Below, piece after piece: positions 1 through 34,649 of a stretch of 64,000 nt of DNA. Within the stretch, counting starts at the first letter, position 1. Each line of letters starts with the position of its first letter. The DNA is taken from assembly GCA_035491895.1 (NCBI GenBank), contig DATJJY010000084.1, forward strand, positions 7,192-71,191. Reading direction: 5' to 3'. Position numbers and translations under genes: made by a program. This stretch comes from Gemmatimonadales bacterium. Lineage in GTDB: Bacteria > Gemmatimonadota > Gemmatimonadetes > Gemmatimonadales > GWC2-71-9. The notes under the pieces were generated by a model that worked only from the letters and a program-made list of their open reading frames with translations, searched no databases and had not been told where the DNA came from.

Positions 1-813
1 CCGGCGCTCCGCCGCGCGGACATCGGCGTCGCCATGGGTCGCGGCGGCACTGACGTGGCGCGCGAGGCCGCCCACATGGTCCTCCTGGACGACAACTTCG
101 CCACCATCGTCGGCGCGGTGCGTGAGGGCCGCCGTATCTACGACAACCTCCGCAAGTTCGTGAAGTACAGTCTGACGACGGGGGTGGGCGAGATCTGGCC
201 CCTGTTCCTCGCCCCGCTGCTGGGGCTGCCGATTCCCCTGCTCCCCATCCACATCCTGTGGATCAACCTGGTCACTGACGGGCTCCCGGGCCTCACGCTC
301 GCGGCCGAACGGTCGGAGGCGGGCGTGATGCAGCGCCCGCCGCGGCCGCCACGGGAGAGCCTGTTCGCGCATGGACTGTGGCAACACGTCGTCTGGGTCG
401 GCCTCCTCATGGGCAGCGTGACGCTGGGCGCCCAAGCGTGGGCGTACAGTACCGGATCGGCGCACTGGCAGAGCATAACCTTCACAGTGATGGCCCTGTC
501 GCAGATGGCACACGTCCTCGCCATCCGTTCAGAGCGTGTGTCACTCCTCCGGCAAGGGCTGTGGTCCAATAGGTCGCTGTTGGGGGCGGTGGTGCTCACG
601 TTCGCCCTCCAGATGGCGACCCTTTATCTGCCGGCGCTCAATGCGGTGTTCAAGACCCAGCCCCTTACGGTGCCTGAGCTCGTTCTCTCGTTGTTGCTTT
701 CCACTCTGGTGTTCGTGGCCGTGGAAATCGAGAAGGCGGTGAGGCGCCGTGCCGACCGGCGGTCGCTATCGACTGCCGCCACCGGGATGGATCTGGGGAA
801 GGAGCAACGATGA
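1..813 (+). CDS. P-type cation-transporting ATPase, C-terminal part (5' end outside window)
   Basis: The frame is open from nt 1 (PALRRADIGVAMG...). It carries the GTDVAREAA..VLLDDNFATIV hinge motif, PIHILWINLVTDGLP and further hydrophobic helices typical of P2-type ATPase C-termini. Stop TGA at 811-813. Confidence 0.85.
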   Translation, partial: PALRRADIGVAMGRGGTDVAREAAHMVLLDDNFATIVGAVREGRRIYDNLRKFVKYSLTTGVGEIWPLFLAPLLGLPIPLLPIHILWINLVTDGLPGLTLAAERSEAGVMQRPPRPPRESLFAHGLWQHVVWVGLLMGSVTLGAQAWAYSTGSAHWQSITFTVMALSQMAHVLAIRSERVSLLRQGLWSNRSLLGAVVLTFALQMATLYLPALNAVFKTQPLTVPELVLSLLLSTLVFVAVEIEKAVRRRADRRSLSTAATGMDLGKEQR

Positions 814-1103
814 AAGCGCCCAGGCGAAGCGGGTTCCAAAGCATGGCAGGAAGATCGATCGTCGTGGGAGTGGACGCTTCATCCGAATCCCGTCGGGCTG
901 GCGCCGTAGCATGGGAGATTGCCCAGGCTTCGGGAATGAATTGCCACCTCGTGCACGCAGTGCCGGACGCGCGGGTTGCGAAGGCGATCGGTTCCGTCCC
1001 GGTCCACGACCGTCTGCTTATCGGCAGTGCGACCGAATGGCTGTTGAGCCGACTGGCCGCATCGCTGCTGGTTGTCCCGTTCGCGCGGGCCAAACGTCGG
1101 TAG
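810..1103 (+). CDS. Short universal-stress-protein-like protein (mini-USP, central part of the fold missing)
   Basis: ATG 810 overlaps the ATPase stop (ATGA), with GAAGGAG about 7 nt upstream. N-terminal SIVVGVDASSES..HLVHAV and C-terminal LLIGSATEWLLSRL..LLVVP match the two ends of the UspA fold, but only about 97 aa in total. Confidence 0.45.
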   Translation: MKAPRRSGFQSMAGRSIVVGVDASSESRRAGAVAWEIAQASGMNCHLVHAVPDARVAKAIGSVPVHDRLLIGSATEWLLSRLAASLLVVPFARAKRR

Positions 1104-1183
1104 AAGCCGCCTTCCGCACCGATTCACCTTCCCTTCATGAAGGAATCGGCAGCTTCCGTGAGGAAACTCAACCGGAGCCCGTT

Positions 1184-2104
1184 ATGTCGTGGAAGTCGAT
1201 CGTCGTAGGAGTGGACGCAACGCCCGCCGGAGGGCATGCGGCACAACTGGGCTTGCAGATCGCGGCCGCCGCGGAAGTCGAGTGCCGGCTGGTGCATGCG
1301 ACCCGCGATGTCTGGACGGCCATTACCGTCGAAGGGAATCCGGCGCACGCCGCGGCATTCCGGGCGGCAGCATTACATGCGGTGCGGGAGCGCCTGAACG
1401 TCGCACTGGAGGGTGTCGTCCCGTGGAAAGCCCTCCACAACGCGGACGTCAGGGAAGGGTGGGCACCCGCCGTACTCGATGACGTGGTGCGCGAAGCCGG
1501 TGCCGATCTCGTCATTCTCGGCGCCAAGCACCACACCGCGCTGGGACGCTGGCTCGGCGGCAGCACGGTGCACAACCTGGCGCGGATGCTGCGCGCGCCG
1601 CTCATGGTGACGGGTGAGCCGCCCGCCAAGATCCGGCGAGTGCTCGTTGCGCTGGACGCGTCGGCAGCCGCTCGGCCGACCTACGAGGCCGCCCGCCGGC
1701 TCGCCGATCTGTTCGACGCCGAGCTGAAAGCGCTGCACGTGATCGAGCCGCTGCCGATCCTGCCCGAGACGCCGCCACCGATGAATTCCATCGATTACGA
1801 GCAGCTGATGGAAGAGGACTGCGCCCAGAAAGTGTGGCCGATCGTCGGAGCGGAGGCCGAGCGGACGATCCGCCACGCCGTCGCCGACTTCGGCATCGCG
1901 GCGGAGGCAAAGGCGTGGGCAGCCGACGTCGTCGTGGTCGGCAGTCATGGCAAGGGTTTCGTGGAGCGGATGCTGGTGGGGAGCGTCACGGAACGTCTCC
2001 TGAGCGATTTGCCGGCGCCCATCCTGCTCGTCATTCCCGCCGGAAAGAAAGCGGCGCACCTCGCCCGCTCGACGAGTCCCGGGAGGCAGGCCGTCGCAGT
2101 CTGA
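1184..2104 (+). CDS. Tandem universal stress protein (two UspA domains)
   Basis: Real start is MSWKSIVVGVDATP (ATG 1184), inside the longer track ORF 749..2104. There are two repeats of the VGVD/..ALDAS ... DLVILGAKHH / VVVVGSHGKGFVERMLVGSVTERLL pattern. Confidence 0.8.
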   Translation: MSWKSIVVGVDATPAGGHAAQLGLQIAAAAEVECRLVHATRDVWTAITVEGNPAHAAAFRAAALHAVRERLNVALEGVVPWKALHNADVREGWAPAVLDDVVREAGADLVILGAKHHTALGRWLGGSTVHNLARMLRAPLMVTGEPPAKIRRVLVALDASAAARPTYEAARRLADLFDAELKALHVIEPLPILPETPPPMNSIDYEQLMEEDCAQKVWPIVGAEAERTIRHAVADFGIAAEAKAWAADVVVVGSHGKGFVERMLVGSVTERLLSDLPAPILLVIPAGKKAAHLARSTSPGRQAVAV

Positions 2105-4771: not shown

Positions 4772-5287
4772 TCAATCCGTATCGGGAGCGTGCACGACCC
4801 CGATATACGGAAGCGTCCGGTACTTGTTGTCGTAGTCGAGGCCGTAGCCGACCACCCAGCGATCCGGAATCTCGAATCCCACGTAATCGAGCCGCACTGC
4901 GGTATTCTCGTGGCCGCGCTTGCGCACCAGGACGCACGTCCGGAGCGACGCCGGCTCGCGGATCTCGAACATCTTCACGAGGTAGGAGAGGGTACACCCC
5001 GAGCTGACGATATCCTCGACGATGACCACGTGGCGGCTCTTGATGTCGACGCGCACGTCCATCGCCAGCCGGACCGACCCCATGGGCAGGCTGCCCCGGT
5101 CGTACTGGGACAGCGAAACGAAGTCCACCGCGCAGGGCACCGTGAGCCGCCGGGTCAGGTCCGCCAGAAACACATAGGAGCCGCGCAGCACCCCCACCAT
5201 CAACAGGTCTTCCACCCCTGCGTGATCGTGTGAAATGCGGCGGGCGAGCTCATCCACGCGATCGGCGATCGCGGATGCCGGAATCAT
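4772..5287 (-). CDS. hpt: Hypoxanthine(-guanine) phosphoribosyltransferase
   Basis: VVIVEDIVSSGCTLS PRPP-binding loop, LLMVGVLRGSYVFLADL, and C-terminal DYVGFEIPDRWVVGYGLDYDNKYRTLPYIGV. Likely start is MIPASAIADRV (5287); the track ORF extends to 5353. Confidence 0.9.
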   Translation of the reverse strand: MIPASAIADRVDELARRISHDHAGVEDLLMVGVLRGSYVFLADLTRRLTVPCAVDFVSLSQYDRGSLPMGSVRLAMDVRVDIKSRHVVIVEDIVSSGCTLSYLVKMFEIREPASLRTCVLVRKRGHENTAVRLDYVGFEIPDRWVVGYGLDYDNKYRTLPYIGVVHAPDTD

Positions 5288-5307: not shown

Positions 5308-6696
5308 TCACACCGGCACCTGCTCCCCGTCCTGTGCCGGACGGCTCGACCATCCCATCTTGGACGAGATCAGGTCGCCGAGCATTTTCGCGGCGGGCGG
5401 TTCACCGTGTACGAGGTAGGTCGTGCGCGGCGGGCGCTTGAATCCGCCGAGCCACCGCAGCATCTCGTTCTGATCGGCGTGCGCCGAGAGACCGTGAATC
5501 GTTTCCACCTTCGCCTGTACCGGCACATCCTCGCCGAACAACCGCAGCGTCTTCGCCCCGTCCTGCAGCGAGCGGCCACGGGTCCCGAGCGCCTGGAAGC
5601 CCACCAGCAGGACCGTGTTCTTTGGATCGGGCAGCCGGTGCGCGAGGTGATGCAGGATGCGGCCGCCGGTCGCCATTCCCGAAGCCGACACGATGATCGC
5701 CGGACCGCGCAGGTCATTCAGGCGCTTCGATTCTTCCACGGCCCTTACAAAGTGGCAATGCGCCGTATGGAGCGGAGTCTGACCGCGCCTGATCTCCGCC
5801 ATGAACTCCTCGTCGAGCTCCTCCGGGTGGTGCAGATAGATCTCCGTGACGTCGGTCGCGGAAGGGCTGTCGACGTACACCGGTAACTGAGGAACACGTC
5901 CCGCATCCTCGAGGTGATGCAGCATCCAGAGCAATTCCTGCGTCCGGTCCACCACGAACGCCGGGACGACGAGGACCCCGCCGCGATCCGCGGTCGCCTT
6001 CACGACGCTCGCCAGCTCGTCGTCGGTACCGGCGGGATGAATGCGGTCGCCGTACGTCGACTCGAGGAGCAGTACGTCCGCTTCCGCCACCGGCTCGGGA
6101 TCCGGCAGGATGGGCCGGTCGTAGCGTCCCAGATCGCCCGAGAAGACGATGCGCGGACCGGGACCCAGCTTCACGTCCACCGTCGCCGCGCCGAGGATGT
6201 GGCCCGCTCGGCGATACGTCACGGTGATGTCGCCCGCGACCGGGAACGCCTGTCCGTACGGCGGCGCCGGTCGCAGCTGCGTCAGCGCCTGTTCCGCGTC
6301 GGCCGCCGTGTAGAGCGGCAATGCCGGCGTGTGCTTCGAGTAGCCATGACGGTTGGCCCGCTCGGCGTCCTCTTCCTGGAGGTGGGCGGCATCGGGGAGC
6401 AGGACCCCCAGGAGGTCCACGGTCGCTTTGGTGCAGTGAATCGGTCCACGGTACCCGCGCTTCACGAGCAGCGGCAGCGCGCCGGTGTGATCGATGTGGG
6501 CGTGCGAGATGACGACCGCGTCCAACGCCGTCGGATCGAACTGGAAGTCGCGCCAGTTCCGCTCGCGCAGCTCCTTCAATCCCTGGAAGAGCCCGCAATC
6601 GAGCAGCACGCGGCGCCCGCTGGCGGTAACGAGGTGCATCGAGCCGGTGACGGTCCCGGCCGCACCGAGAAACTGAATGGAAGGGGCGTTCGCCAT
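5308..6696 (-). CDS. MBL-fold metallo-hydrolase with beta-CASP/RNA-metabolising domain
   Basis: Start MANAPSIQFLGAAGTVTGS (ATG 6696). ISHAHIDHTGALP (HxHxDH) motif, and a later ...HGLSAHADQNEMLRW beta-CASP motif C-like region. Confidence 0.85.
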   Translation of the reverse strand: MANAPSIQFLGAAGTVTGSMHLVTASGRRVLLDCGLFQGLKELRERNWRDFQFDPTALDAVVISHAHIDHTGALPLLVKRGYRGPIHCTKATVDLLGVLLPDAAHLQEEDAERANRHGYSKHTPALPLYTAADAEQALTQLRPAPPYGQAFPVAGDITVTYRRAGHILGAATVDVKLGPGPRIVFSGDLGRYDRPILPDPEPVAEADVLLLESTYGDRIHPAGTDDELASVVKATADRGGVLVVPAFVVDRTQELLWMLHHLEDAGRVPQLPVYVDSPSATDVTEIYLHHPEELDEEFMAEIRRGQTPLHTAHCHFVRAVEESKRLNDLRGPAIIVSASGMATGGRILHHLAHRLPDPKNTVLLVGFQALGTRGRSLQDGAKTLRLFGEDVPVQAKVETIHGLSAHADQNEMLRWLGGFKRPPRTTYLVHGEPPAAKMLGDLISSKMGWSSRPAQDGEQVPV

Positions 6697-6728: not shown

Positions 6729-7508
6729 CTAACTCGCGCGACCTGCTTCGATCACCCCCAGCACTCGCAACAGTCCGTCCAGGAACGTGAGCGGATGCGG
6801 CGGACACCCTGGTACCCAGAGATCGACCGGGATCTCGCCGGGAACGCCGTTCGAGACTTCCGGGCTGCCGCGAAACGGCCCCCCACTCACGGCGCAAGCG
6901 CCCACAGCCAGCACGATCTTCGGCGGCGGAACGGCGTCGTAAGTCTTCTGCAGCGCCAAACGCATGTTGACGTTGACGGCGCCGGTGATCACGATTCCAT
7001 CGGCGTGGCGAGGCGAAGCGACGAACTGCACGCCGAAACGGGCCAGGTCGAACACCACATTACCGAGGGCTACGAGCTCGGCCTCGCACCCGCCGCAGCT
7101 CCCCGCCACGACCGACCGGAGCCGCAGCGATCGCCCAAACAGCTTGCGACTGCGCTCGTCGAGCGCCCGCGCCAGCTCCACCTCGCCGCCTGGCGTCACC
7201 AGGGCGTCGCGTCGGTCGACAGCCATCCGATAATCCCGGGAGTACCCGATGGCGCCCGCCGGACACGCTGCGGCCTCCTCAGGACTGAAGAGACACGACC
7301 CGAGGTCCAGCGACGTCCGAGCGTTCGGGCCTTCTACCAGGAATGCCGAGGGGGCGTGGGCGCGGCACTCGCTGCAGTCATCCGGGCAACGCGCGGGGTC
7401 GCGCACCGCGCGGCCACGGAACCGCTCCGGGAGCTCGGGGAGAGGTCCCCGTGGAAAGGGCAGGGTGCGCATCCCCTGCCGCAGCCGGTTGCGGATCAGG
7501 TCGAGCAC
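6729..7508 (-). CDS. Ehr/Hyc small subunit: NuoB/HycG-like [4Fe-4S] domain fused to a degenerate HycF/NuoI-like ferredoxin N-terminus
   Basis: C-terminal half has GSCGGCEAE ... GACAVSGGPF ... VPGCPPHP (NuoB/HycG cluster motifs). N-terminal half has ..RNRLRQGMRTLPFPRGP..FRGRAVRDPARCPDDCSECRAHAP...CLFSPEEAAACPAGAI (HycF-like with depleted Cys). Start is probably GTG 7508; ATG 7472 is the alternative. Confidence 0.8.
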   Translation of the reverse strand: MLDLIRNRLRQGMRTLPFPRGPLPELPERFRGRAVRDPARCPDDCSECRAHAPSAFLVEGPNARTSLDLGSCLFSPEEAAACPAGAIGYSRDYRMAVDRRDALVTPGGEVELARALDERSRKLFGRSLRLRSVVAGSCGGCEAELVALGNVVFDLARFGVQFVASPRHADGIVITGAVNVNMRLALQKTYDAVPPPKIVLAVGACAVSGGPFRGSPEVSNGVPGEIPVDLWVPGCPPHPLTFLDGLLRVLGVIEAGRAS

Positions 7509-7524: not shown

Positions 7525-9036
7525 TCACAGGTCGTGCCCGGCGTAGGAGAGATTGAAGCTCTTGTTGCACAGCGGGAAGTCGGAGATCTCGTTCCCGGGC
7601 ATCGCAAGCGCGAGTGCGGCCCAATTGTGGAACGACGGGTCCGTGACCTTGTGCCGGCGGATGCTTCCCGTGTCGTCCGTGATGACCACGTGCACGATCT
7701 CCCCGCGCCACCCCTCGACCATCGCCACGACCAGCTCGTCGGGCCGCAGCGGTCCGCACGACACGCGGGCTTCGCCCCGAGGCAGCGCGCCGAGCTGCTC
7801 GATGAGGAAGGCGAGTGAGCGCTGAATTTCCAGCCGCCGCACCAGTGCCCGCGCCAGCACGTCGCCTGCCCAGGCCGTGGCCACCGGAATGTGGGCGAAA
7901 CGAAAGATCCCGTAGGGATGATCCTGGCGCACGTCCCGCGACATTTCGCACGCGCGTGCCACCGGACCGACGAGGCCGGCGTCGCCGCAGGCGGCCTTGG
8001 GCACAATGCCCACGCCTTCGAAGCGGGCCTGTACCGACGCGCTCTGGAACATCAAATCGAGGACCGGCTCAACTTCATCCCTGAGTCCCTCCAGTCGGCC
8101 GTGCATGTACGCCGCCATCTCCGGCGGGATGTCGAATCCGGCTCCTCCCGGCCGCACCAATCCACGACCGTACCGGTTGCCGCTCAGCGTCATCAGGAGA
8201 TTCAGGCACTCACCGCGCAGCCGTCCGAGGTACGCTGCGGCCGGCGCATAGGCCACATCGCCGGCCATGGCGCCGAGATCGCCGATATGGTTGGCCAACC
8301 GCTCGAGCTCGAGGGCGATGCCGCGGATCGTCTGCGCGCGCGGCGTCTTACGGGTGCGTGCGAGAGCCTCCAAGGCCCCGCAATACGCTTCAGCGTGCCC
8401 GATTACGGTATCCCCCGCGATCGACTCGGCCAGCAGCACGCCACGCACGGAGTCGAGCGTCTCCAGCAGCCGCTCCACGCCGCGGTGTTGGTACCCCAGC
8501 ATGATCTCCAGAAACAACACTGTTTCGCCGTGCGCCTGGAAACGAAAGTGTCCCGGCTCGATGATTCCGGCGTGCACGGGACCCACCGCCACCTCGTGGA
8601 CCTCATCGCCCTCGATCCGGAAGAACGGATGTGCCTCCCGATCTATCGCGCCGCCCCGGCGGGCTGGTGACACGTGATCCGGCGGGTGGCGCCGCAACGG
8701 CTTGAGCCAGGGGTGGCCCTCGGGCACCACGCCGCATTGCTCCGCGATTTCGCGCTCGAAGCGGTCTGCCTGGGCGCACTGCAGCGTGAGTGCCGGGTAG
8801 CGGAGATCCACGACCGTGGTCGACACCATCAGGTCGCCGCGGACATCATCGGCCAGGACAGCGACGAGCCTGGTCTGATCGTCTCTTTCAGGCATGCCAA
8901 ACAGCGACACGAGCCGCCACCCATCTGCCACCGCTTGCACCAGCGACTCGCGGAAACTGTCGAGCGATTCGCGCGGAACCGACTTCCAGGGAACGGCCCG
9001 GCGATTACGCAGCCCGAGCTCCCCGAAGTCTCTCAT
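7525..9036 (-). CDS. Ehr large subunit: NuoC-NuoD/HycE-like fusion lacking all four [NiFe] cysteine ligands
   Basis: ATG 9036 overlaps the upstream stop (ATGA). N-terminal NuoC-like domain, then HEVAVGPVHAGIIEPGHFRF, LGYQHRGVERLLE, ERLANHIGD. The position of RxCGxCxxxH reads ESIAGDTVIGH, and the position of DPCxxCxxR reads FNLSYAGHDL at the C-terminus. Confidence 0.85.
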   Translation of the reverse strand: MRDFGELGLRNRRAVPWKSVPRESLDSFRESLVQAVADGWRLVSLFGMPERDDQTRLVAVLADDVRGDLMVSTTVVDLRYPALTLQCAQADRFEREIAEQCGVVPEGHPWLKPLRRHPPDHVSPARRGGAIDREAHPFFRIEGDEVHEVAVGPVHAGIIEPGHFRFQAHGETVLFLEIMLGYQHRGVERLLETLDSVRGVLLAESIAGDTVIGHAEAYCGALEALARTRKTPRAQTIRGIALELERLANHIGDLGAMAGDVAYAPAAAYLGRLRGECLNLLMTLSGNRYGRGLVRPGGAGFDIPPEMAAYMHGRLEGLRDEVEPVLDLMFQSASVQARFEGVGIVPKAACGDAGLVGPVARACEMSRDVRQDHPYGIFRFAHIPVATAWAGDVLARALVRRLEIQRSLAFLIEQLGALPRGEARVSCGPLRPDELVVAMVEGWRGEIVHVVITDDTGSIRRHKVTDPSFHNWAALALAMPGNEISDFPLCNKSFNLSYAGHDL

Positions 9037-10466
9037 GGCGCCGATCCTCCGAGCGCCGTGGCGGCCCGCGCCAGAAGCTGCTGCAGCGGCCCGGGAATCG
9101 CGATCCCCAGAGCAAGCGCGGCGACGACGAGCGCCGCGGGACCCGCGACGAGCCATGCGCTCTCCCGGGCGCGCGGTCCGGAGGAGGCCACCGGTCCATA
9201 CAGCATCCCCAACATCATCGCCCCGACCCCGATGAAGATCACCGCGAGCAGGGCGAGGACCGCGCCCGCGATCCAGGGATGGCCGCCGGCCCAGGCCGCA
9301 CGCACGATCGTGAACTCGCTCAGGAACATCCCGAACGGCGGTGACCCCGTCACCGCGAACAGTCCCAGGAGGAGCAGGATTCCGGACACGGGGACCGCGC
9401 GCAGTACGCCTCCGCCGGATGATGGAAACGCAGTGGCGGCAGGGCCGACAACCAGCACGGCGTTCCCGACCGCGAGGAAGAGGAGTCCTTTTACCACCGC
9501 GTTGTTGACCAGGTGCAGCACGCTGCCGTAGACCCCGACGCCCCCCAATCCCAGCCCGAGGACGAGCAAGCCCACGTGCTCGACGCTCGAGTACGCGAGC
9601 AGGCGCTTCACGTCGGTTTGCCCGACGACGAACGCCGCCGCCACCGTGAGCGAGAGCAGTCCGAAGATCACGAGCGGCGGCTGCACGAATTGACCCAGGC
9701 CGGCGGCAACCGCGACCTCGGTTACCCGAGCGATCCCCAGGAACGCACAGCTGGTGAGGCCCCCGGCCATCAGGCCGCCGACCAACGCCGGCGCCTCGCC
9801 GTACGTGTCCGGCTTCCAGGTGTGCATCGGCGCGAGCCCCAGTTTGGTGCCGTACCCCACCAGCAGGAAGACGAACGCCGCCTTGAGCCAGACCGGATGC
9901 AGCAATGCCGCATGCGCGACGAGATCCTCCAACACAAGTGGCCGTACTCCCGGGCTGAGCTCTCCCTGGGCGGTGGAGAGAAAGAAGGTCCCGAGCAACG
10001 CCAGTGCGATGCCGACCGACGAGAGGACGAGATACTTCCACACTGCCTCGAGGGACCGCCGGTCGCGCCGCTGGAAGATGAGGGGCGCCAACGCCAGGGT
10101 CGTGCCTTCCATCCCCACCCACAGGAGTGCCAGATGATGGCTCACGGCAACCAGTGATGCGGTGGCGAGAAATGCGAGGAGCCAGCTCGCAAACCCGCGC
10201 CCGGTCCGTTCGCACCGCAGGTATCCCACCGCGTACGTCGCCACGACGAAGAACAGCAGGCTGACGACCGAAAGGACGACGAGCCCGAGCGGGTCGAGCG
10301 CGAGCCACCCATCGAGCACGGCAGCGGGTGGTGACCACCACGCCGTCGCGACGAGTATCAGATGAATGGCCGCCACCCATACCAGCCAACCGCCGTGCCG
10401 GGTGCCCCGGGCGAAGGCTCCCGCGGCGCCGAGCGCGGGGACGAGGAACAGCGCGAGCAGGAGCAT
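9033..10466 (-). CDS. Antiporter-like membrane subunit (HyfF / NuoN / Mrp-type)
   Basis: Start MLLLALFLVPALG (ATG 10466, 1-nt overlap with the upstream TGA). LLWVGMEGTTLALAPLI, WKYLVLSSVGIALALLG and LAPMHTWKPDTYGEAPALVGGLMAGGL are typical of the proton-conducting NuoL/M/N family. Confidence 0.85.
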   Translation of the reverse strand: MLLLALFLVPALGAAGAFARGTRHGGWLVWVAAIHLILVATAWWSPPAAVLDGWLALDPLGLVVLSVVSLLFFVVATYAVGYLRCERTGRGFASWLLAFLATASLVAVSHHLALLWVGMEGTTLALAPLIFQRRDRRSLEAVWKYLVLSSVGIALALLGTFFLSTAQGELSPGVRPLVLEDLVAHAALLHPVWLKAAFVFLLVGYGTKLGLAPMHTWKPDTYGEAPALVGGLMAGGLTSCAFLGIARVTEVAVAAGLGQFVQPPLVIFGLLSLTVAAAFVVGQTDVKRLLAYSSVEHVGLLVLGLGLGGVGVYGSVLHLVNNAVVKGLLFLAVGNAVLVVGPAATAFPSSGGGVLRAVPVSGILLLLGLFAVTGSPPFGMFLSEFTIVRAAWAGGHPWIAGAVLALLAVIFIGVGAMMLGMLYGPVASSGPRARESAWLVAGPAALVVAALALGIAIPGPLQQLLARAATALGGSAP

Positions 10467-11104
10467 CAGTCTCTCAGCTCCGTGAGCCGGGCCGAGTCGA
10501 GCGAATCGAACTCCCGGTTGATGTGGAACACGACGATCCCCATGATGAACACACCCACGAACACGTCGAGCAGGACGCCGACCTCGACGAGAAAGGGAAC
10601 GCGGTCCAGGCTCGTCAACCCGAACACATAGATCCCGTTCTCCAGCATGAGGTAGCCCACCACCTGGATCAACGCTTTCGCCCGCGTGGCCAGGACCTGG
10701 AGCCCCATGATGACGCACGCGAGCGAGGTGGTGACCAGCAACACCGGATGCTCACCCGGCACCGGGAGCCGCACCGCCACCGCGCCGGCCACGGCGACGG
10801 CGAGAATTCCCAGCACGAGGGACGCGACATAACCGACCCGTGGCTCAACTTCCCGGCGGACCGCGGCTTCCCGAATCGCCCAGATGAGGAACCAGGGCAG
10901 CACGATCGCCTTCACGAGGATCGTTCCCGCCGCGAGGCCCAGTGTATGGACCGACCACTGCGGGCGCAGCACGAGCGGCAGCAGGCCGAGCAATCCACCC
11001 TGCACCGCCACGGCCCGGATGCACGTCGTGAGCCGCGTGGTGCCGAGAATGAGAAAGCCGAACAACAGGACCAGCAGCAGGAGTAGGTCTGCCAGACGTT
11101 CCAT
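10466..11104 (-). CDS. HyfE-like small membrane subunit (NuoK-related)
   Basis: 212 aa, about 6-7 TM helices. The C-terminal ..GYLMLENGIYVFGL..VPFLVEVGVLLDVFVGVFIMGIVV pattern resembles hydrogenase-4 component E. Confidence 0.8.
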   Translation of the reverse strand: MERLADLLLLLVLLFGFLILGTTRLTTCIRAVAVQGGLLGLLPLVLRPQWSVHTLGLAAGTILVKAIVLPWFLIWAIREAAVRREVEPRVGYVASLVLGILAVAVAGAVAVRLPVPGEHPVLLVTTSLACVIMGLQVLATRAKALIQVVGYLMLENGIYVFGLTSLDRVPFLVEVGVLLDVFVGVFIMGIVVFHINREFDSLDSARLTELRD

Positions 11105-11106: not shown

Positions 11107-12093
11107 TTAGCTGAGGAGCTGGAGGATGGCACCGAGCGACGCCAGCACCGATGCGGCAACCAGGAACTGCGGGACTCGGCTCAAGCGGAACCGCGCCATG
11201 CTGGATTCGACCACGCCCACGGCGACGGCCACCGTCAAAAGACCCGCCACGAGCAATCCCAATGCCGCGGGACCGGGGAGACGGCCACGGGACGCCAGAA
11301 CACCGACCAGTAGCGCGGCGAAGAGGGCCATTCTGAGCGCGGCGCCGTAGAGGAGCAGCGCCAGATCCGGGCCACTGTGATCGAGCACGGTAACCTCGTG
11401 AATCATGGTCAGCTCGAGGTGCGTGGCGGGATCGTCCACCGGCATGCGGGACGCTTCCGTCAGCAGCACGAAGAACAGGCTCGCCGCGGCCATCGCCAGC
11501 GCCGGCGCCGCCGCGCCCCAGGGAAGCGCTTGCGTTCCGCCGAGCATCCCTTCGAGCGAAAGCTGCCCGCTGGCGAGTGCCAGCACGACGAAGCTGAGAA
11601 ACAGCGCCGGCTCGACGAGCGATGCGAAGGTCGCGTCGCGGCTCGCGCCCATCCCTTCAAAGCTCGATCCGGTATCGAGCGCCGCGAGCACCAGGGTGAA
11701 GCGGCCCAAGGCCAGCAGCGCGGCGAACCCCACGAAATCGCCGGTGAAACCAAACAGTGCGTGGCGCCCGTCGAGCGGCAGTAACCCCAGAGCGAGCAAC
11801 GGAGTCACCAGTCCGGCCACAGGGGCCAGGCGGAATATCCAAGTCGTCGTCGTGCTGTACACGGCACCCTTGCGCACCAAGCGGAAGAGGTCCCAGTAGA
11901 GCTGCATCAGCGGCGCACCGCGCCGGCCAGTGAGCACCGCTTTCGTCTTGGCTGCGACCCCGGGAAGCACGGGCGCGAGCGCCAGCAGAACGAGGAAGCC
12001 GACGGCGGATGACGCGGTCAGGGGGACGCCCCCTGCGCCAGATAGAGGAGGAGCAGCAGCAGGATAGCGATGACGTACAGGAGGTACACCCAC
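11107..12093 (-). CDS. HycD/HyfC/NuoH-like membrane subunit
   Basis: ..AKTKAVLTGRRGAPLMQLYWDLFRLVRKG.. matches the HycD/NuoH N-terminal loop, and the protein has multiple TM helices. Start is uncertain. The first canonical in-frame start is GTG 12093 (75-nt overlap with the upstream gene). A CTG at 12021 would give a CTGA stop/start overlap and a HycD-like length. Confidence 0.8.
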   Translation of the reverse strand: MGVPPVRHRYPAAAPPLSGAGGVPLTASSAVGFLVLLALAPVLPGVAAKTKAVLTGRRGAPLMQLYWDLFRLVRKGAVYSTTTTWIFRLAPVAGLVTPLLALGLLPLDGRHALFGFTGDFVGFAALLALGRFTLVLAALDTGSSFEGMGASRDATFASLVEPALFLSFVVLALASGQLSLEGMLGGTQALPWGAAAPALAMAAASLFFVLLTEASRMPVDDPATHLELTMIHEVTVLDHSGPDLALLLYGAALRMALFAALLVGVLASRGRLPGPAALGLLVAGLLTVAVAVGVVESSMARFRLSRVPQFLVAASVLASLGAILQLLS

Positions 12094-13985
12094 AACCGGC
12101 CGTGCTGGAGGGGACGGAGCCGCGCCAACACCCCACGCACGGCGCTCCAAGCGGGGAGGATCGCTCCGTCCAGGACGAGCTCGCGGGCTTGACTGTGAAA
12201 CGCCCTTCCCCCATGGGCGTGCGTTTCGTGGACGCCAGCCAAGCGGCCATACGCCGCGAGGAGCGGAGCCGCGAACGACGATGCCGTGTACTGCATCCGC
12301 TCGTTCTGGAGGGCGTAGCCGCACCCCCAGGTCTCCGCCCGCGTGAGCGACCGGCGCCGGCGTACGGCTGCCCACGCCACGGCACCGAGAGCAAGGAGCA
12401 CGACGAGCACGAGCGACCAGAGCCCGAGGCGGACGATCCCCGCGAAGACCTCGCTCCCGCTCGCCGGGAACGGGATTCGCGCGATCGACGCGCCTACGAC
12501 GAGGGCCGGCCCAACCGCGAGACCCGGTGCCAGCCCGATGAAAGCGCACGCCCCCGCCAGACCGAACATCGGACCCAGCATGCCGCCTGCGACCTCGTGC
12601 CCATGTAGCGCCGCGTCACTTCGAGGCACCCCCAGGAACACGACGCCGCATACCTTCGCGAAACATGCCAGGGCGAGGCCACCAATGATCGCGAGGCCGA
12701 CTACGCCGAGGAGAACCAACCGGATGGACCCTCCAGCCGTGCCGCCACGCAGCAGGCCGAGATAGATCACCCATTCGCTCACGAAGCCGTTGAGCGGCGG
12801 CAATCCCACAATGGCGACGGAACCGATTAGGAACGACACCCAGGTGAAGGGCATGCGCCGTCCCAGGCCGCCGAGGCGATCCATGATTCGCGTCCCCGTC
12901 GCGTGAACCGTCGCGCCGGCGCCCAGGAACAGGAGGCTTTTGAAGAGTGCATGATTCATCGTGTGGAGCACCGCGCCGGCGAACCCGAGCACCGCAACGA
13001 GGGGAACTCCGTAGGCCGCGCCCAAGGCCCCCGTTCCCAACCCGATGAGAATGATCCCGATATTTTCGACGCTATGATAGGCGAGGAGGCGCTTCAGGTC
13101 GTGCTGCGCCAGGGCCCAAAGCACGCCGAGAACACCCGACAGCACTCCGCTCACCAGCACCAGCCAGCCCCACCACGCAGGGGGCGCACCGAGCAGGCTC
13201 ACCACCCGGATCAGACCGTAGATCCCCATCTTGATGACCACTCCGGACATCAACGCGGAGACGTGCGTTGGGGCCGACGCGTGGGCGTCGGGAAGCCAGA
13301 AGTGGAGCGGGACGAGACCCGCCTTGAGGCCGAATCCGAAGAGCGCAAGACACAGCACGAGCGCACCTCGGGCGGGCAGGCTGCCAGCCCGACTCGCCAA
13401 AGCGTCGAAGGTGAGTCCACCTCCGGCGCCCGCCCAGGAGGCGAACAGCGCGATCAGCGCGAGGGTGCCAACGTGAGTCGCCACCAGGTACACCCACCCC
13501 GCGCGTCGCACTTCGGCCCGCTCGTTGTCGAACGTCACCAGGAAGTAGGCGAGTACCGCCATCGCCTCCCAGGCGACGAGAAACGGCACCACGGCTCGCG
13601 CCAATACGACCAGCGCCAGGGCAGCCAGCTCGACCGCGAAGAGGGCACGCGCGGTCGCAACGCCGCGCCGGCTTCCGTCGCCGCCGAGTGCGCGCAAGCC
13701 GTACAACGCGCTCGCCAGGCCCGGGCCGAGGACGACGAGGAGAAACGCCGCCGAGAGGCGATCGAGACCAAACACCCAGGGGCCGCTCGGCGCCGGGATG
13801 GGTATCTGGATGTCCGCCGCCGACCCACCCGCCAGCACGCTCACTGCCGGTGCCGCCGCCACCACGCACCCGACGGCGACCAACAGCCCATACGCGCGAT
13901 CCGCGAGCACGGGCCGGCTGCGTAGCACGGCGGCGCACCCCGCGGCGGCTACAATCGTCGCGAGCCCCCAGAAGCACAGGTTCAC
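12018..13985 (-). CDS. HyfB / NuoL-like antiporter subunit
   Basis: 655 aa. AWEAMAVLAYFLV, HFWLPDAHASAPTHVSALMSGVVIKMGIYGLIRV, LKRLLAYHSVENIGIILIG. GTG start 13985 overlaps the upstream stop (GTGA). Confidence 0.85.
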   Translation of the reverse strand: MNLCFWGLATIVAAAGCAAVLRSRPVLADRAYGLLVAVGCVVAAAPAVSVLAGGSAADIQIPIPAPSGPWVFGLDRLSAAFLLVVLGPGLASALYGLRALGGDGSRRGVATARALFAVELAALALVVLARAVVPFLVAWEAMAVLAYFLVTFDNERAEVRRAGWVYLVATHVGTLALIALFASWAGAGGGLTFDALASRAGSLPARGALVLCLALFGFGLKAGLVPLHFWLPDAHASAPTHVSALMSGVVIKMGIYGLIRVVSLLGAPPAWWGWLVLVSGVLSGVLGVLWALAQHDLKRLLAYHSVENIGIILIGLGTGALGAAYGVPLVAVLGFAGAVLHTMNHALFKSLLFLGAGATVHATGTRIMDRLGGLGRRMPFTWVSFLIGSVAIVGLPPLNGFVSEWVIYLGLLRGGTAGGSIRLVLLGVVGLAIIGGLALACFAKVCGVVFLGVPRSDAALHGHEVAGGMLGPMFGLAGACAFIGLAPGLAVGPALVVGASIARIPFPASGSEVFAGIVRLGLWSLVLVVLLALGAVAWAAVRRRRSLTRAETWGCGYALQNERMQYTASSFAAPLLAAYGRLAGVHETHAHGGRAFHSQARELVLDGAILPAWSAVRGVLARLRPLQHGRLWVYLLYVIAILLLLLLYLAQGASP

Positions 13986-14680
13986 CGCGACGCCACCGGG
14001 TGAGTTCCGCTCGTCGCCTGCTCTAGCTCACGCACGCGGGCGAGCAAAGCATCGGCGCTGGCCCGCCCCTCCAACAGTCCCCTGAGCGTCTTGTCCCGCA
14101 GCACAAAGCCCAGCTGCGCCAGTATCCGGAGGTGGGCTGGGACGTTCGGGCTGATGACGGTGAAGAGTGCGTGCACGGGCTTGCCGTCAACCGCGTCGAA
14201 CCCCACAGGGTGGTGCAACAAGCACAGGGTCACGAACGGGGCCGCGACGTGCAGCAGAATCGGGTTGCGGACATGCGGGATGGCGATTCCGTCGCCGATC
14301 CCCGTCGAGCCCATCGCCTCGCGCGCCTCGAGCACCGTGGCGAGAAAGTCGCGGTCGGCGTCGGCGGGGAGCGGCAGGCGCTTCACGATTTGGTGCAGCA
14401 CCTCTGCTCTTCCTTCTCCCCCGACGTCGTGATGGATCCCCCCGGTAACCAGTAGCTCCGACAGCAAGGCCACGTCCTCGGGCCGACGCCGCGCCTGATC
14501 CAGCAAGCGACGGGACACGGCGATGCCCTGTTCCGTAGCCCACTCCCACAGCTCGATGGCGTTCAGATGGAGGCGTTCGTTGACAGTGTGGGCCGGCAGT
14601 CCGCGCTGGCTGATCCAGCGGCGCACGGTCGACTCGTTGACTCCGAGATACGAGGCCGCCTGGTGGACGGTCAGCTGCAT
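13982..14680 (-). CDS. HTH (excisionase/MerR-type) DNA-binding domain fused to a PTS EIIA(Ntr/Fru)-type domain
   Basis: N-terminus LTVHQAASYLGVNESTVRRWISQRGLPAH (HTH_17-like). C-terminal domain carries STGIGDGIAIPHVRNP (EIIA_2 phospho-His loop) and ..VHALFTVISPNVPAHLRILAQL. Confidence 0.8.
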   Translation of the reverse strand: MQLTVHQAASYLGVNESTVRRWISQRGLPAHTVNERLHLNAIELWEWATEQGIAVSRRLLDQARRRPEDVALLSELLVTGGIHHDVGGEGRAEVLHQIVKRLPLPADADRDFLATVLEAREAMGSTGIGDGIAIPHVRNPILLHVAAPFVTLCLLHHPVGFDAVDGKPVHALFTVISPNVPAHLRILAQLGFVLRDKTLRGLLEGRASADALLARVRELEQATSGTHPVASR

Positions 14681-14751: not shown

Positions 14752-16389
14752 TCACGGACTAGGATCGATACGGAACCGGTAGCGGGTGAGTCGAACGCCT
14801 CCGACACTGACATCACCCGTGATCGTACCGCCCGCTCGCGCGACCGCCGCGTAGAGCTCCTGCATCATCGTGGGATACGAGTTCGCGACCAGCGCCCAAG
14901 CCGTCGGATGCGCAACCGCCGCGAGGCGCGCCGCTTCACGGGCCGCCCAGCCGGAATCACTGACGACGGGGACGCCGAAACCGCGGCCCTCGCGCCACTG
15001 GATTCCGGATGCGAGCCCGAGTACCTCGACCCTGCCGCCGCGCGTCGTCCGGAGGCTGTCGCCTTCCTCCAGCCTAACTGGACGGCCGCGCGGAGGCGTG
15101 TTGTGGAATGCCGCGGCTCCCGGCGTCCCCGCGTATTGCTCGATCCAATCGAGATACGCCGTATCGGCGCGCGCCCAATCGGTCGTGTAGAAAGCCCACG
15201 CCGGGATGCTTCCGCTCGCCAGGTAGATGGGCTCGTCCCCTCGCGCGAGGCGCTGCAGCGAGTCCACCGCCTCCCGCGTGGAAGCTGGACGATATGGATG
15301 GGCGACGTTCACTCCGATGAGCGCGACAATCGCCACGACGCCGAGCGCCCAGCCGAGGCGCGCTCGTTGCAGCGTGGGGGCGGCGAATACCGCCGCGAGG
15401 CCCAGCAGGAAGGTGGGGACCGTGAACATCAGGAGACGGGCGGCGAGCGGGTACCGCTGCAGGCCAGAGGCGACGAGGAGGAGCAAGAGCGGTACGCCGA
15501 GCAGTGCGACGCTCGCGCGCGGCAAGCGGCGCAGCCATACCCAGAGCCCCACACCCACGATATCAGCGAAGCCGATGATGACGGCGGCAGGCGCCGAGCG
15601 GCCGACGATCGACATGAATAGCCCGCGCGCCAGATTCCACCACCCCTCCGCGTGGCTGGGTGCGAAGAACGCGGGGCCCCAGAACTGCTGCATGTACCAA
15701 CTGGCCGCGACCGGTCGGTACAGGAGAGCGTAGAGCGGAACCCACACTGCACCCCACAGAGCCAGGCAAAGGATCAGTCGCCGGGCCGTCCGCCCCCTGA
15801 GGGGGCGTACGCCCACGACGATCGCCGCCGCCGCCCCCGCCAGCAGAAAGGGAGCGGGAAGCGAACCGAGAATCGCGACGAGACTCACGACCCCGAAGCG
15901 GACCCAGACGCCCTTCGAATCCGGGCGATCGAGCAGGTCGAGCGTACACCACATCAGGAGGAGGGTGAACAGTGCGTCGGTGATGTACGGCTTGGCGGTG
16001 ACGCTGTATTGAATCAACGCCGGGGCGAAGGCCGCCAGGGCGGACGCGAGGATCGCCGCGGGCTCCGTCAGGAGCCGGCGCCCCACTCCCCAAACCAGAA
16101 ACGGGATCAGCGAACCCGCCGCGAGGGGGATGAAGCGAAGCGTGTACTCGTTCATCCCCGCGACTGTCGTGCACAGCTTCACGGCCCAGAGAAAGAGAAC
16201 CGGACCCGTCTGGAGCGAGGCCAGTGGACGGAGCAGCTCCATGAAGGAGCGTAGACCCAAGTCCAGGCTCAACGTCGTCTCATCAATCGTCAGCGACGGA
16301 CGGGAGAGGTAGAACCCGAGGCGAAGGGCCGTGCCGAGAATCAGGATTACCGTGAGCAGGAACTGTCGACGCCGGAGCGACAACGTCAC
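14752..16389 (-). CDS. ArnT/PMT_2-like (GT-C fold) membrane glycosyltransferase, paralogue 2
   Basis: GTG 16389 overlaps the upstream stop (GTGA). N-terminus LRLGFYLSRPSLTIDETTLSLDL..PVLFLWAVKLCTTVAGMNEYTLRFIPL, about 10-12 TM helices, plus a C-terminal soluble domain. Clearly paralogous to 16386..17990. Confidence 0.7.
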   Translation of the reverse strand: MTLSLRRRQFLLTVILILGTALRLGFYLSRPSLTIDETTLSLDLGLRSFMELLRPLASLQTGPVLFLWAVKLCTTVAGMNEYTLRFIPLAAGSLIPFLVWGVGRRLLTEPAAILASALAAFAPALIQYSVTAKPYITDALFTLLLMWCTLDLLDRPDSKGVWVRFGVVSLVAILGSLPAPFLLAGAAAAIVVGVRPLRGRTARRLILCLALWGAVWVPLYALLYRPVAASWYMQQFWGPAFFAPSHAEGWWNLARGLFMSIVGRSAPAAVIIGFADIVGVGLWVWLRRLPRASVALLGVPLLLLLVASGLQRYPLAARLLMFTVPTFLLGLAAVFAAPTLQRARLGWALGVVAIVALIGVNVAHPYRPASTREAVDSLQRLARGDEPIYLASGSIPAWAFYTTDWARADTAYLDWIEQYAGTPGAAAFHNTPPRGRPVRLEEGDSLRTTRGGRVEVLGLASGIQWREGRGFGVPVVSDSGWAAREAARLAAVAHPTAWALVANSYPTMMQELYAAVARAGGTITGDVSVGGVRLTRYRFRIDPSP

Positions 16390-34356: not shown

Positions 34357-34398
34357 GTGGTCTCCACAGGTTGAGGTGGAACATCTGTCTTCCATTTC

Positions 34399-34486: not shown

Positions 34487-34649
34487 ATTTGATGTTACGA
34501 GACGTAGCTGGCGTGTCGCTATCTTATCACTGACAGGATAGTGCTGCTAGTCAGCCGCGATGCCCGCATCGCGTTGTTTGCTTCTCGCTCTGGACGCCGC
34601 TGAGGGACTGCTGAAGGCAGGACCGTCCTACGCTGCTTCCGTTACGCTC

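What the first reader, a model, noticed from the sequence alone, without database searches (positions are those of the whole stretch)
7525..9036. Large subunit has replaced all four [NiFe] cysteine ligands
The group-4 N-terminal motif E-R-x-C-G-x-C-x-x-x-H reads E-S-I-A-G-D-T-V-I-G-H here, so Cys becomes Ala and Cys becomes Thr while the His is kept. The C-terminal D-P-C-x-x-C-x-D-R position reads N-L-S-Y-A-G-H-D-L, so Cys becomes Ser and Cys becomes Gly, and the protein ends right there. Flanking family signatures (GPVHAGIIEPGHFRF, LGYQHRGVERL, ERLANHIGD) are well conserved. This argues for a functional but non-hydrogenase protein rather than a pseudogene. The C-terminus also leaves no extension for endopeptidase processing.
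Basis: partly seen in the sequence, partly recalled or inferred. Interest (0 to 1): 0.7.

Follow-up and report, generated by a model that had tools for sequence, protein, structure and literature searches.

The report
Cysteine-free hydrogenase-like subunit (EhrL)

Summary
Minus-strand ORF 7525-9036 (503 aa) is a NuoC+NuoD/HycE-type large subunit. All four [NiFe] cysteines are replaced: A207, T210, S497, G500. The protein ends at D502-L503.

It is not a pseudogene or a sequencing error. The replaced motifs are invariant in 36 Gemmatimonadota homologues. E204/G208/D209/H214 and D486-L503 are nearly invariant in 81 genomes from at least 12 phyla.

This is the defining feature of the Ehr (energy-converting-hydrogenase-related) complexes. 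They have been described since 2005/2013 in Geobacter, Mycobacterium tuberculosis and Nitrospira, and their function is still undetermined.

The window carries the full collinear operon: HTH-EIIA regulator, HyfB-, NuoH-, HyfE- and HyfF-like membrane subunits, EhrL, and EhrS (HycF-like domain fused to NuoB).

Three points go beyond the finding:
- This Gemmatimonadota clade has uniformly lost one of the two ferredoxin-type [4Fe-4S] clusters of EhrS.
- Other lineages have lost the NuoB-type cluster or the other ferredoxin-type cluster.
- A PTS-EIIA-type regulator with an invariant phospho-histidine heads the operon across phyla, and no electron-input partner is conserved nearby.

I infer an ion-translocating machine that does not depend on an electron wire to the old active site. 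That mechanism is unproven.

The parts
7525..9036 (-). EhrL: the large subunit (NuoC-like N-domain fused to a NuoD/HycE-like domain), 503 aa, lacking all four [NiFe] cysteine ligands.
   Evidence: Translation. Pfam Complex1_49kDa 4e-35 and Complex1_30kDa 4e-6. Best solved relative is HycE 7z0s_E at 5.7e-46. AF2 model has pLDDT 79.8 and pTM 0.85. Foldseek best hit is 7z0s_E at 3e-26 with TM 0.79.
8395..8427 (-). Remodelled N-terminal [NiFe] motif E204-S-I-A207-G-D209-T210-V-I-G-H214, where hydrogenases have E-R-x-C-G-x-C-x-x-x-H.
   Evidence: Alignment to HycE. E204 is 80/81; G208, D209 and H214 are 81/81 in 81 genomes. D209 is the residue that separates Ehr from its CxxC-bearing relatives.
7528..7581 (-). 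C-terminal motif D486-F-P-L-C-N-K-S-F-N-L-S497-Y-A-G500-H-D-L503, where hydrogenases have ..D-P-C-x-x-C-x-D-R. The protein ends here.
   Evidence: D486, F487, P488, N491, K492, S493, S497, Y498, G500 and D502 are 81/81.
6729..7508 (-). EhrS: the small subunit, 259 aa, with a HycF/MbhN/NuoI-like ferredoxin domain fused to a NuoB/HycG-like domain. The start is GTG at 7508.
   Evidence: Pfam Oxidored_q6 1.5e-27. NCBIfam NuoB subfamily 1e-32 and formate hydrogenlyase Fe-S subunit 1.2e-9. The N-domain matches MbhN at 8.6e-8 and HycF at 2.3e-7. Start codon.
7263..7388 (-). Ferredoxin-type motifs of EhrS. Motif I reads C41-x3-C45-x2-C48-x3-A52, so the fourth Cys is lost. Motif II reads C72-L-F-S75-P-E-E78-A-A-A-C82, so the second and third Cys are replaced by Ser and Glu. 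One [4Fe-4S] site is kept (C41, C45, C48, C82) and the other is lost.
   Evidence: In 80 metagenomic relatives at 65-90% identity, 79/80 keep C41/C45/C48/C82, 80/80 have E78, 79/80 have S or A at position 75, and position 52 is variable.
6804..7097 (-). The four NuoB-type cysteines of EhrS (C138, C141, C205, C235), which bind the cluster next to the former active site. They are retained here.
   Evidence: They are 80/80 in close relatives. They are replaced in loci L009, L030, L045, L057, L058 and L073 of other phyla.
9033..10466 (-). HyfF/NuoN-type antiporter-like membrane subunit (EhrD equivalent).
   Evidence: Pfam Proton_antipo_M 2.3e-43. NCBIfam hydrogenase 4 subunit F 1.6e-88, below cut-off. 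The TM5 Glu, TM7 Lys, TM11 His/Lys and TM12 Glu are conserved in 64-70 of 70.
10466..11104 (-). HyfE-like small membrane subunit (EhrC equivalent).
   Evidence: NCBIfam hydrogenase 4 membrane subunit 5.1e-22. Membrane acidic residues are conserved.
11107..12021 (-). NuoH/HycD-like membrane subunit (EhrB equivalent). The start is uncertain, because there is no ATG, GTG or TTG between the hyfB-like stop and the first helix. CTG at 12021 is a candidate.
   Evidence: Pfam NADHdh 1.9e-29. Sequence. The acidic loop residues are conserved.
12018..13985 (-). HyfB/NuoL-type antiporter-like membrane subunit (EhrA equivalent).
   Evidence: NCBIfam hydrogenase 4 subunit B 3.4e-162 over its full length, below cut-off. 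Pfam Proton_antipo_M 3.5e-52. E140, K221, H341, H345, K349 and E404 are conserved in 55-56 of 56.
13982..14680 (-). First gene of the operon: a helix-turn-helix domain fused to a PTS EIIA-2 (PtsN-like) domain. Its stop overlaps the hyfB-like start (GTGA).
   Evidence: Pfam PTS_EIIA_2 4.4e-20 and HTH_17 1.8e-8. The junction is shown. The gene sits at the head of the operon in at least 43 of 62 loci with enough upstream sequence. The phospho-acceptor His136 in G-I-A-I-P-H is 49/49.

Best explanation
This is EhrL, the large subunit of an Ehr (energy-converting-hydrogenase-related) complex of a Gemmatimonadales bacterium.

Shown:
- It descends from group-4 [NiFe]-hydrogenase large subunits but cannot bind Ni-Fe, so it is not a hydrogenase.
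- It lacks the complex-I quinone ligands.
- It is encoded in a self-contained, translationally coupled operon with a NuoB-type small subunit, a NuoH-type subunit, a HyfE-type subunit and two antiporter-like subunits. Their ion-translocation residues are intact.

Inferred:
- The former Ni-Fe cavity has become a strictly conserved polar/acidic pocket: E204, D209, T210, H214, S497, Y498, D502.
- This pocket acts as the cytoplasmic proton/cation-handling or gating site of a complex-I/Mrp-like ion translocator.
- In this lineage the ferredoxin-type relay of the small subunit is interrupted, because one of its two clusters is lost.
- In other lineages the cluster next to the pocket is lost instead.
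- So the conserved function of the family probably does not depend on delivering electrons to the pocket.
- Expression or activity is probably controlled through a PTS(Ntr)-type phospho-relay acting on the HTH-EIIA protein encoded first in the operon.

My confidence in the identity (Ehr, non-hydrogenase, functional) is about 0.95. My confidence in the redox-independent mechanism is about 0.35-0.4.
For: Identity:
- Motif replacement is shown by alignment to HycE.
- HycE is the best match by sequence (5.7e-46) and by fold (3e-26, TM 0.79).
- NuoD equivalogs score far below cut-off (180 vs 360 bits).
- The collinear operon occurs in 80 loci of at least 12 phyla, including cultured Geomonas limicola and other Geobacteraceae at about 50% identity. 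This matches the Ehr subunit list given for Geobacter GSU0739-45 (PMC7894505).
- The literature definition of Ehr is loss of the CxxC motifs, with function unknown (PMC6349859, PMC10284858, PMC10432482, PMC6728331).

Functional, not decaying:
- The replaced motifs are invariant.
- The ion-translocation residues are conserved.

Against an obligatory electron wire:
- 19 of 69 EhrS sequences lack ligands of at least one cluster, and different lineages lack different clusters.
- The loss in the Gemmatimonadota clade is uniform and its replacement motif (C-L-F-S-P-E-E-A) is itself conserved.
- The EhrL pocket stays invariant in all these lineages.
- No formate dehydrogenase, NuoEF or other electron-input gene is conserved within 6 kb on either side of the operon, nor among the window ORFs scanned against Pfam.

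Regulator.
Against: - About 50 of 69 family members keep all 12 cysteines.
- This clade keeps the remaining 8 cysteines in 79-80 of 80 relatives. That argues the clusters still matter, as redox centres, sensors or structural elements.
- The identification of the lost cluster as the one adjacent to the NuoB cluster (the N6b equivalent) rests on my recollection of the Thermus Nqo9 ligand assignment. It was not tested here.
- Long-range tunnelling between the two remaining clusters would be slow but not strictly impossible.
- Geobacter Ehr subunits are more abundant on formate (PMC7894505), which hints at a redox link.
- No coordinates were available, so pocket geometry is inferred from alignment only. 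The AF2 model is of low confidence exactly at residues 132-183 and 482-503.
- No experiment exists for any Ehr complex in the library searched.
Confidence: 0.55

Rival explanations
1. Classical Ehr hypothesis. The complex is a redox-driven ion pump. Electrons enter through the ferredoxin-like domain of EhrS, or directly at the NuoB-type cluster. They reduce an unknown non-H+, non-quinone substrate in or near the remodelled pocket, and this drives the antiporter-like subunits.
For: - Most family members keep all three clusters.
- This clade strictly keeps two clusters.
- The pocket and the proton-relay-type residues E204 and H214 are invariant.
- The literature proposes redox coupling, and Geobacter Ehr is up-regulated on formate (PMC6349859, PMC7894505).
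- In MBS, a relative, the cluster next to the pocket is thought to be catalytic (my knowledge, not tested here).
Against: - Each of the three clusters is dispensable in some lineage while EhrL stays invariant.
- One relay cluster is lost in this clade.
- No electron-donor module is conserved beside the operon.
- No candidate substrate is known.
Confidence: 0.3
2. The pocket holds a new non-cysteine metal or cofactor site, for example Fe, Mn, Zn or Mg bound by D209, H214, E204 and D502. It performs new chemistry or sensing, such as hydration, hydrolysis or ligand sensing, coupled to the membrane arm.
For: - The carboxylate and histidine residues sit exactly at the old metal site and are invariant.
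- A Cys one position before the old second C-terminal ligand (S-Y-C-G) occurs in 64/81 members.
Against: - That Cys is Ala in this clade, and position 501 is variable (H/F/Y).
- There are no matches to known metal-site families.
- No maturation or cofactor genes are conserved nearby.
- Geometry could not be examined.
Confidence: 0.1
3. It is a complex-I-type (NuoD-like) quinone-reducing subunit, or an MBS/Mbx-type sulfur-reducing subunit.
For: - Pfam and NCBIfam name it NuoD/49-kDa-like.
- Public annotations call it NADH-quinone oxidoreductase subunit C.
- The fold matches NuoCD at TM about 0.74.
Against: - Every NuoD equivalog that matched scores far below its cut-off.
- Nqo4 Tyr87 aligns with Gly208 and His38 with Ile159.
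- HycE is a much better match than Nqo4 (5.7e-46 vs 1.1e-30) or MbsL (3e-22).
- MbsL has a different motif, R-I-C-V-P-E-P.
- The membrane subunits are Hyf-type.
Confidence: 0.03
4. It is a decaying pseudogene, or the substitutions are an assembly or sequencing artefact.
For: None beyond the loss of the catalytic ligands.
Against: - The ORF is intact with coupled starts.
- The identical protein is found on 6 contigs.
- The motifs are invariant across phyla.
- At least 598 species-level genomes carry it.
Confidence: 0.01

Closest known systems
Ehr (Ech/energy-converting-hydrogenase-related) complex of Geobacter sulfurreducens, GSU0739-45 (EhrA-1, EhrA-2, EhrB, EhrC, EhrD, EhrL, EhrS)
   Same: - The large subunit lacks the Ni-Fe cysteines.
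- The set and order of genes is the same: NuoL/HyfB-like, NuoH-like, HyfE-like, HyfF-like, large, small.
- Geobacteraceae orthologues are about 50% identical with the same pocket motifs (PMC7894505).
   Different: - This operon has one HyfB-like gene, whereas most Geobacteraceae loci have two.
- This clade has lost one ferredoxin-type cluster of EhrS, and most Geobacteraceae keep both.
- It has Ala instead of Cys at position 499.
- The G. sulfurreducens sequence itself was not available for direct comparison.
E. coli formate hydrogenlyase large subunit HycE (FHL-1, PDB 7Z0S) and the Hyf (hydrogenase-4) membrane subunits; group 4f [NiFe]-hydrogenases
   Same: - HycE is the best sequence and fold match.
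- It shares the NuoC-NuoD fusion.
- It has HyfB/E/F-type membrane subunits and HycF- and HycG-like modules.
- The nearest CxxC-bearing relatives, at about 37-40% identity, look like group 4f (PMC10284858).
   Different: - No Ni-Fe ligands.
- No C-terminal extension.
- HycF- and HycG-like parts are fused into one protein.
- There is no HycB/FdhF-type electron-input partner in or beside the operon.
Mycobacterium tuberculosis Rv0082-Rv0087 ('hyc' genes, regarded as an EHR complex)
   Same: It is described as a hydrogenase-like complex that cannot be a hydrogenase, with undetermined function (PMC6728331).
   Different: According to that paper it is headed by the regulator Rv0081, not by an HTH-EIIA gene. 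No sequence comparison was made here.
Respiratory complex I Q-module (NuoB, NuoCD, NuoH, NuoI) and Pyrococcus MBS/Mbx
   Same: It has the same fold and architecture for the peripheral-to-membrane junction, and antiporter-like subunits with the same key residues.
   Different: - It lacks the Tyr and His quinone ligands.
- It has no NADH module.
- The MbsL motif differs.
Mrp-type multisubunit cation/proton antiporters
   Same: - It has two MrpA/MrpD-type antiporter-like subunits with conserved Glu/Lys/His.
- The proposed way of working needs no redox substrate (inference).
   Different: - Mrp has no NuoB/NuoD/NuoH/NuoI-like cap.
- This is a 'works like' comparison only, and it is untested.

Membership tests
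Ehr complex, large subunit (EhrL) | Homologous to group-4 [NiFe]-hydrogenase large subunits / NuoD | tested here: met
   HycE 5.7e-46 and MbhL 1e-35. Pfam Complex1_49kDa. Foldseek 7z0s_E 3e-26 with TM 0.79.
Ehr complex, large subunit (EhrL) | Both CxxC Ni-Fe-binding motifs are absent | tested here: met
   A207, T210, S497 and G500. The definition is as stated in PMC6349859, PMC10284858 and PMC10432482.
Ehr complex, large subunit (EhrL) | Encoded with a NuoB-like small subunit, a NuoH-like subunit, a HyfE-like subunit and NuoL/Mrp-type antiporter-like subunits, as listed for Geobacter Ehr | tested here: met
   The subunit list is in PMC7894505.
Ehr complex, large subunit (EhrL) | Orthology with the Geobacter protein on which the name is based | tested here: inconclusive
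   Collinear orthologues occur in Geomonas limicola, Citrifermentans and other Geobacteraceae at about 50% identity. The G. sulfurreducens EhrL sequence itself (within GSU0739-45) could not be retrieved.
Group 4 [NiFe]-hydrogenase (HycE/Hyf/Ech/Mbh/4f) | N-terminal C-G-x-C ligands | tested here: not met
   The motif reads A-G-D-T.
Group 4 [NiFe]-hydrogenase (HycE/Hyf/Ech/Mbh/4f) | C-terminal C-x-x-C ligands | tested here: not met
   The motif reads S-Y-A-G.
Group 4 [NiFe]-hydrogenase (HycE/Hyf/Ech/Mbh/4f) | Hyp maturation genes and an endopeptidase in the genome | not testable with these tools
   Only a 64-kb window is available. None were seen among the ORFs scanned.
Complex I NuoD/Nqo4 | Quinone-ligating Tyr87 and His38 (Thermus numbering, from my knowledge of the family) | tested here: not met
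   In the ungapped HMMER alignment to 2fug_4, Tyr87 aligns with Gly208 and His38 with Ile159.
Complex I NuoD/Nqo4 | Scores above the curated NuoD equivalog cut-offs | tested here: not met
   180.5 bits against a cut-off of 360 (NF004739), and 146 against 459 (TIGR01962).
MBS/Mbx large subunit (MbsL) | Close sequence relationship and the same active-site-region motif | tested here: not met
   The match is only 3e-22, and MbsL reads R-I-C-V-P-E-P where this protein reads S-I-A-G-D-T-V.
Mrp antiporter | Antiporter-like subunits with the conserved TM5 Glu, TM7 Lys and TM12 Lys/Glu | tested here: met
Mrp antiporter | No hydrogenase/complex-I-type peripheral subunits | tested here: not met
   EhrL, EhrS and a NuoH-like subunit are present.

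The most novel reading that the evidence does not exclude
Ehr complexes are not redox enzymes. They are PTS(Ntr)-regulated, Mrp-like ion translocators that kept the hydrogenase/complex-I 'cap' as a gating or proton-loading module built around an invariant Asp-His-Glu pocket. Their Fe-S clusters are dispensable relics. That would make Ehr a living intermediate between Mrp antiporters and the redox-driven pumps (group-4 hydrogenases and complex I).
Probability: 0.3. Interest if true: 0.7.

Novelty: new member of a known kind. Interest (0 to 1): 0.33.

Why it matters
The finding as written re-discovers the defining trait of Ehr complexes, so it adds a Gemmatimonadota member to a known class and nothing more. 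The class itself does matter.

- It is present in at least 598 species-level genomes of many phyla.
- It sits evolutionarily between Mrp antiporters, membrane-bound hydrogenases and respiratory complex I.
- It has no known function.

Three patterns seen here turn 'function unknown' into specific experiments on how the complex-I-type coupling machine can work without its redox chemistry:
- The former active site is invariant.
- The Fe-S relay is lost piecemeal in different lineages.
- A PTS-EIIA-type regulator is conserved at the head of the operon.

Tried and rejected
- A first AF2 run on a shallow alignment (36 sequences at 73-100% identity) gave a poor model with pLDDT 60. Adding Geobacteraceae homologues raised it to 79.8. 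The N-terminal sheet/loop (132-183) and the C-terminus (482-503) remain low-confidence.
- The beta-CASP metallo-beta-lactamase-fold nuclease and the HPRT-like gene lie directly downstream (5308-6693 and 4772-5284). I considered them as possible operon members and rejected them, because they are not conserved next to Ehr in other loci.
- I searched 6 kb on both sides of the operon in 80 loci for a conserved partner such as formate dehydrogenase, NuoEF, cytochromes or carbonic anhydrase. Only generic sensor kinases and response regulators recur, in at most 11 loci.
- I scanned selected large window ORFs for hyp or fdh genes and found none.
- Marreiros et al. 2013 (BBA), the key Ehr paper, is not held in the library. 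A search for Gemmatimonadetes together with Ehr found no paper. I found no structural or biochemical study of an Ehr complex.
- A search for the Nqo9 cluster-ligand assignment did not yield it. The N6a/N6b identification therefore stays as recalled knowledge.
- The Geomonas-seeded protein search returned no entry named EhrL.
- The pseudogene/artefact, NuoD and MbsL readings were rejected on the tests listed above.
Full report
**Observation**

The coordinates are right but the gene lies on the minus strand. The plus-strand frame has stops. The reverse complement of 7525-9036 is an open 503-codon frame ending in a stop.
- Its ATG at 9036 overlaps the stop of the upstream gene (ATGA) and is preceded by GGAGGA.
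- Pfam finds a NuoC-type (Complex1_30kDa) and a NuoD-type (Complex1_49kDa) domain.
- The best solved relative is E. coli HycE (7z0s_E, E=5.7e-46), then Pyrococcus MbhL (1e-35), Thermus Nqo4 (1.1e-30) and MbsL (3e-22).
- In the HycE alignment, 'DRVCGICGFAH' lies over 'ESIAGDTVIGH' and 'DPCYSC' over 'NLSYAG'.
- All four Ni-Fe cysteines are therefore replaced (A207, T210, S497, G500), His214 is kept, and the protein ends at D502-L503.

**Not an artefact or a pseudogene**

- The identical protein is on record from 6 contigs and is annotated for a Gemmatimonadales MAG.
- In 36 homologues at 73-100% identity, both replaced motifs are invariant.
- A search of 1.84 billion cluster representatives gave 6129 relatives.
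- Among the 114 representatives of at least 440 residues that I aligned, most read E-[ST]-[ILV]-[AS]-G-D-[ST]-x-x-[GA]-H and D-F-P-L-C-N-K-S-F-N-L-S-Y-[CAS]-G-x-D-L. Six of them carry CxxC...CxxC, at about 37-40% identity.
- Those six also end at D-R/L/K without a tail, so the lack of a C-terminal extension does not discriminate.
- In 81 genomes, G208, D209, H214, S497, Y498, G500 and D502 are 81/81 and E204 is 80/81.
- The positions that best separate this family from its CxxC-bearing relatives include D209, S497, G500 and L503.

**What it is**

The neighbours on the same strand are as follows.
- HTH + PTS-EIIA-2 protein: 13982-14680.
- HyfB-like subunit: 12018-13985.
- NuoH/HycD-like subunit: 11107 to about 12021.
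- HyfE-like subunit: 10466-11104.
- HyfF-like subunit: 9033-10466.
- This gene.
- A small subunit, 6729-7508, in which a HycF/MbhN-like ferredoxin domain is fused to a NuoB/HycG-like domain.

The best 80 loci come from these groups:
- Gemmatimonadota, Planctomycetota, Verrucomicrobiota and Omnitrophota
- Geobacteraceae and other Desulfuromonadota
- Acidobacteriota, Spirochaetota, Myxococcota, Actinomycetota, Bacteroidota, Fibrobacterota and others

The gene order is the same throughout, with one or two HyfB-like genes.

This is the published Ehr complex:
- Ehr complexes are related to group-4 hydrogenases but lack the residues that coordinate Ni and Fe (PMC6349859).
- They are close to group 4f, lack the CxxC motifs, and have unknown function (PMC10284858, PMC10432482).
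- In Geobacter sulfurreducens they are encoded by GSU0739-45, with NuoL-like EhrA, HyfE-like EhrC, EhrL and EhrS (PMC7894505).
- The M. tuberculosis Rv0082-87 genes are regarded as the same kind (PMC6728331).

An AF2 model built on 88 sequences (pLDDT 79.8, pTM 0.85) matches HycE best (Foldseek 3e-26, TM 0.79), then the fused NuoCD of E. coli.

The protein is not a NuoD. The NuoD equivalog models score far below their cut-offs. The positions of the Nqo4 quinone ligands Tyr87 and His38 are Gly208 and Ile159.

**Beyond the finding: the Fe-S relay**

The NuoB-type part of EhrS keeps its four cysteines. The ferredoxin-type part reads C-x3-C-x2-C-x3-A and C-L-F-S-P-E-E-A-A-A-C. Only the site made of the first three cysteines of motif I plus the last of motif II is intact.
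- In 80 metagenomic relatives (65-90% identity) the pattern is uniform.
  - The intact site and the NuoB site are kept in 79-80 of 80.
  - Glu78 is 80/80 and Ser/Ala75 is 79/80.
  - Position 52 drifts.
- Across the family, about 50 of 69 EhrS proteins keep all 12 cysteines.
- Six loci of Planctomycetota, Verrucomicrobiota and Actinomycetota have replaced the NuoB-type cysteines inside otherwise perfectly conserved motifs (G-G-S-G-A-E-E-A-D, G-A-E-A-I-S-G-G, P-G-W-P-P-H-P).
- A Geobacter subclade has lost motif I instead.
- Two Omnitrophota loci and one Gemmatimonadota locus have no complete ferredoxin-type site.
- The EhrL pocket is unchanged in all of them.
- By my recollection of the Thermus Nqo9 assignment, the site lost here is the N6b equivalent, the cluster next to N2. 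I could not verify this.
- The complementary losses in different clades make the general point without that assignment.

**Beyond the finding: membrane arm, regulator, partners**

- Both antiporter-like subunits keep the TM5 Glu, TM7 Lys, TM11 His/Lys and TM12 Glu.
- The NuoH-like and HyfE-like subunits keep their acidic residues.
- The HTH-EIIA gene heads the operon in at least 43 of 62 loci that have enough upstream sequence.
- Its phospho-acceptor histidine (G-I-A-I-P-H) is 49/49.
- No electron-input gene is conserved within 6 kb of the operon in the 80 loci, and none was seen among the window ORFs scanned against Pfam.

**Mechanism**

Shown:
- The protein is not a hydrogenase and not a quinone site.
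- It is under strong purifying selection.
- It is part of a self-contained operon with an apparently competent ion-translocating membrane arm.

Inferred:
- The old Ni-Fe cavity is now a polar/acidic pocket that handles protons or cations, or gates the NuoH-type channel.
- Because every cluster is dispensable somewhere while the pocket is not, the core function probably does not need electrons delivered to the pocket.
- A PTS(Ntr)-type signal probably controls the operon.

I put about 0.35-0.4 on this redox-independent reading and about 0.3 on the classical redox-pump reading. The classical reading is favoured by the retention of all clusters in most members and by the formate response in Geobacter (PMC7894505). 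I put about 0.1 on a new metal or cofactor site.

**Verdict**

The phenomenon, however, is the textbook definition of Ehr complexes. This is a new (Gemmatimonadota) member of a known kind, with a lineage-specific loss of one relay cluster. Interest is modest for the finding itself. The family-wide patterns noted here are the part worth following up.

Noticed in passing
window 13982-14680 (-); loci L001-L078: A small HTH + PTS-EIIA-2 (PtsN-like) protein is the first gene of the Ehr operon in at least 43 of 62 loci from many phyla, and its phospho-acceptor His is invariant (49/49). I found no mention of this link in the papers searched.
   Followed up: partly
window 7263-7388 (-); L001-L006, L081-L160: The Gemmatimonadota clade of EhrS has uniformly lost one of the two ferredoxin-type [4Fe-4S] sites. 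The replacement motif C-L-F-S-P-E-E-A is itself conserved.
   Followed up: yes
L009, L030, L045, L057, L058, L073 (EhrS, about 11.9-12.4 kb in each locus): In Planctomycetota, Verrucomicrobiota and Actinomycetota members the NuoB-type cluster cysteines are replaced (for example by S/E/E/W) inside otherwise conserved motifs, while EhrL is unchanged.
   Followed up: partly
L021 11516-12373; also L032, L077: A Geobacter subclade has an IclR-type regulator gene inserted between ehrL and ehrS. Its EhrS has lost the first ferredoxin motif, which is the complement of the loss seen in this window.
   Followed up: partly
window 11990-12030 (-): The NuoH-like gene has no ATG, GTG or TTG between the hyfB-like stop (12018-12020) and its first transmembrane helix. 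A CTG at 12021 that overlaps the stop (CTGA) is the only nearby candidate start.
   Followed up: no
L035 2574-9965; L053 13281-20557: Some genomes carry a second, more divergent hydrogenase-like operon (about 36-37% identity) in tandem. It is also cysteine-free (S-G-D-[ST] ... S-Y-S-G-x-D-[RL]), and its small subunit showed no detectable HycF-like N-terminal domain.
   Followed up: no
window 5308-6693 (-) and 4772-5284 (-): A beta-CASP metallo-beta-lactamase-fold RNA-processing-type nuclease and an HPRT-like phosphoribosyltransferase follow ehrS closely on the same strand. They are not conserved with Ehr elsewhere, although a beta-CASP gene lies near the operon in L001.
   Followed up: partly
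EhrL position 499 (window 7540-7542): Most family members (64/81) have a Cys one residue before the old second C-terminal ligand (S-Y-C-G). This clade and a few others have Ala.
   Followed up: no
window 749-2104 (+), 14752-17990 (-), 32788-37826 (-): The context includes a tandem universal-stress-protein gene, two paralogous PMT_2-type glycosyltransferases, and an ammonium transporter next to two glutamine synthetase genes. None could be linked to the operon.
   Followed up: no
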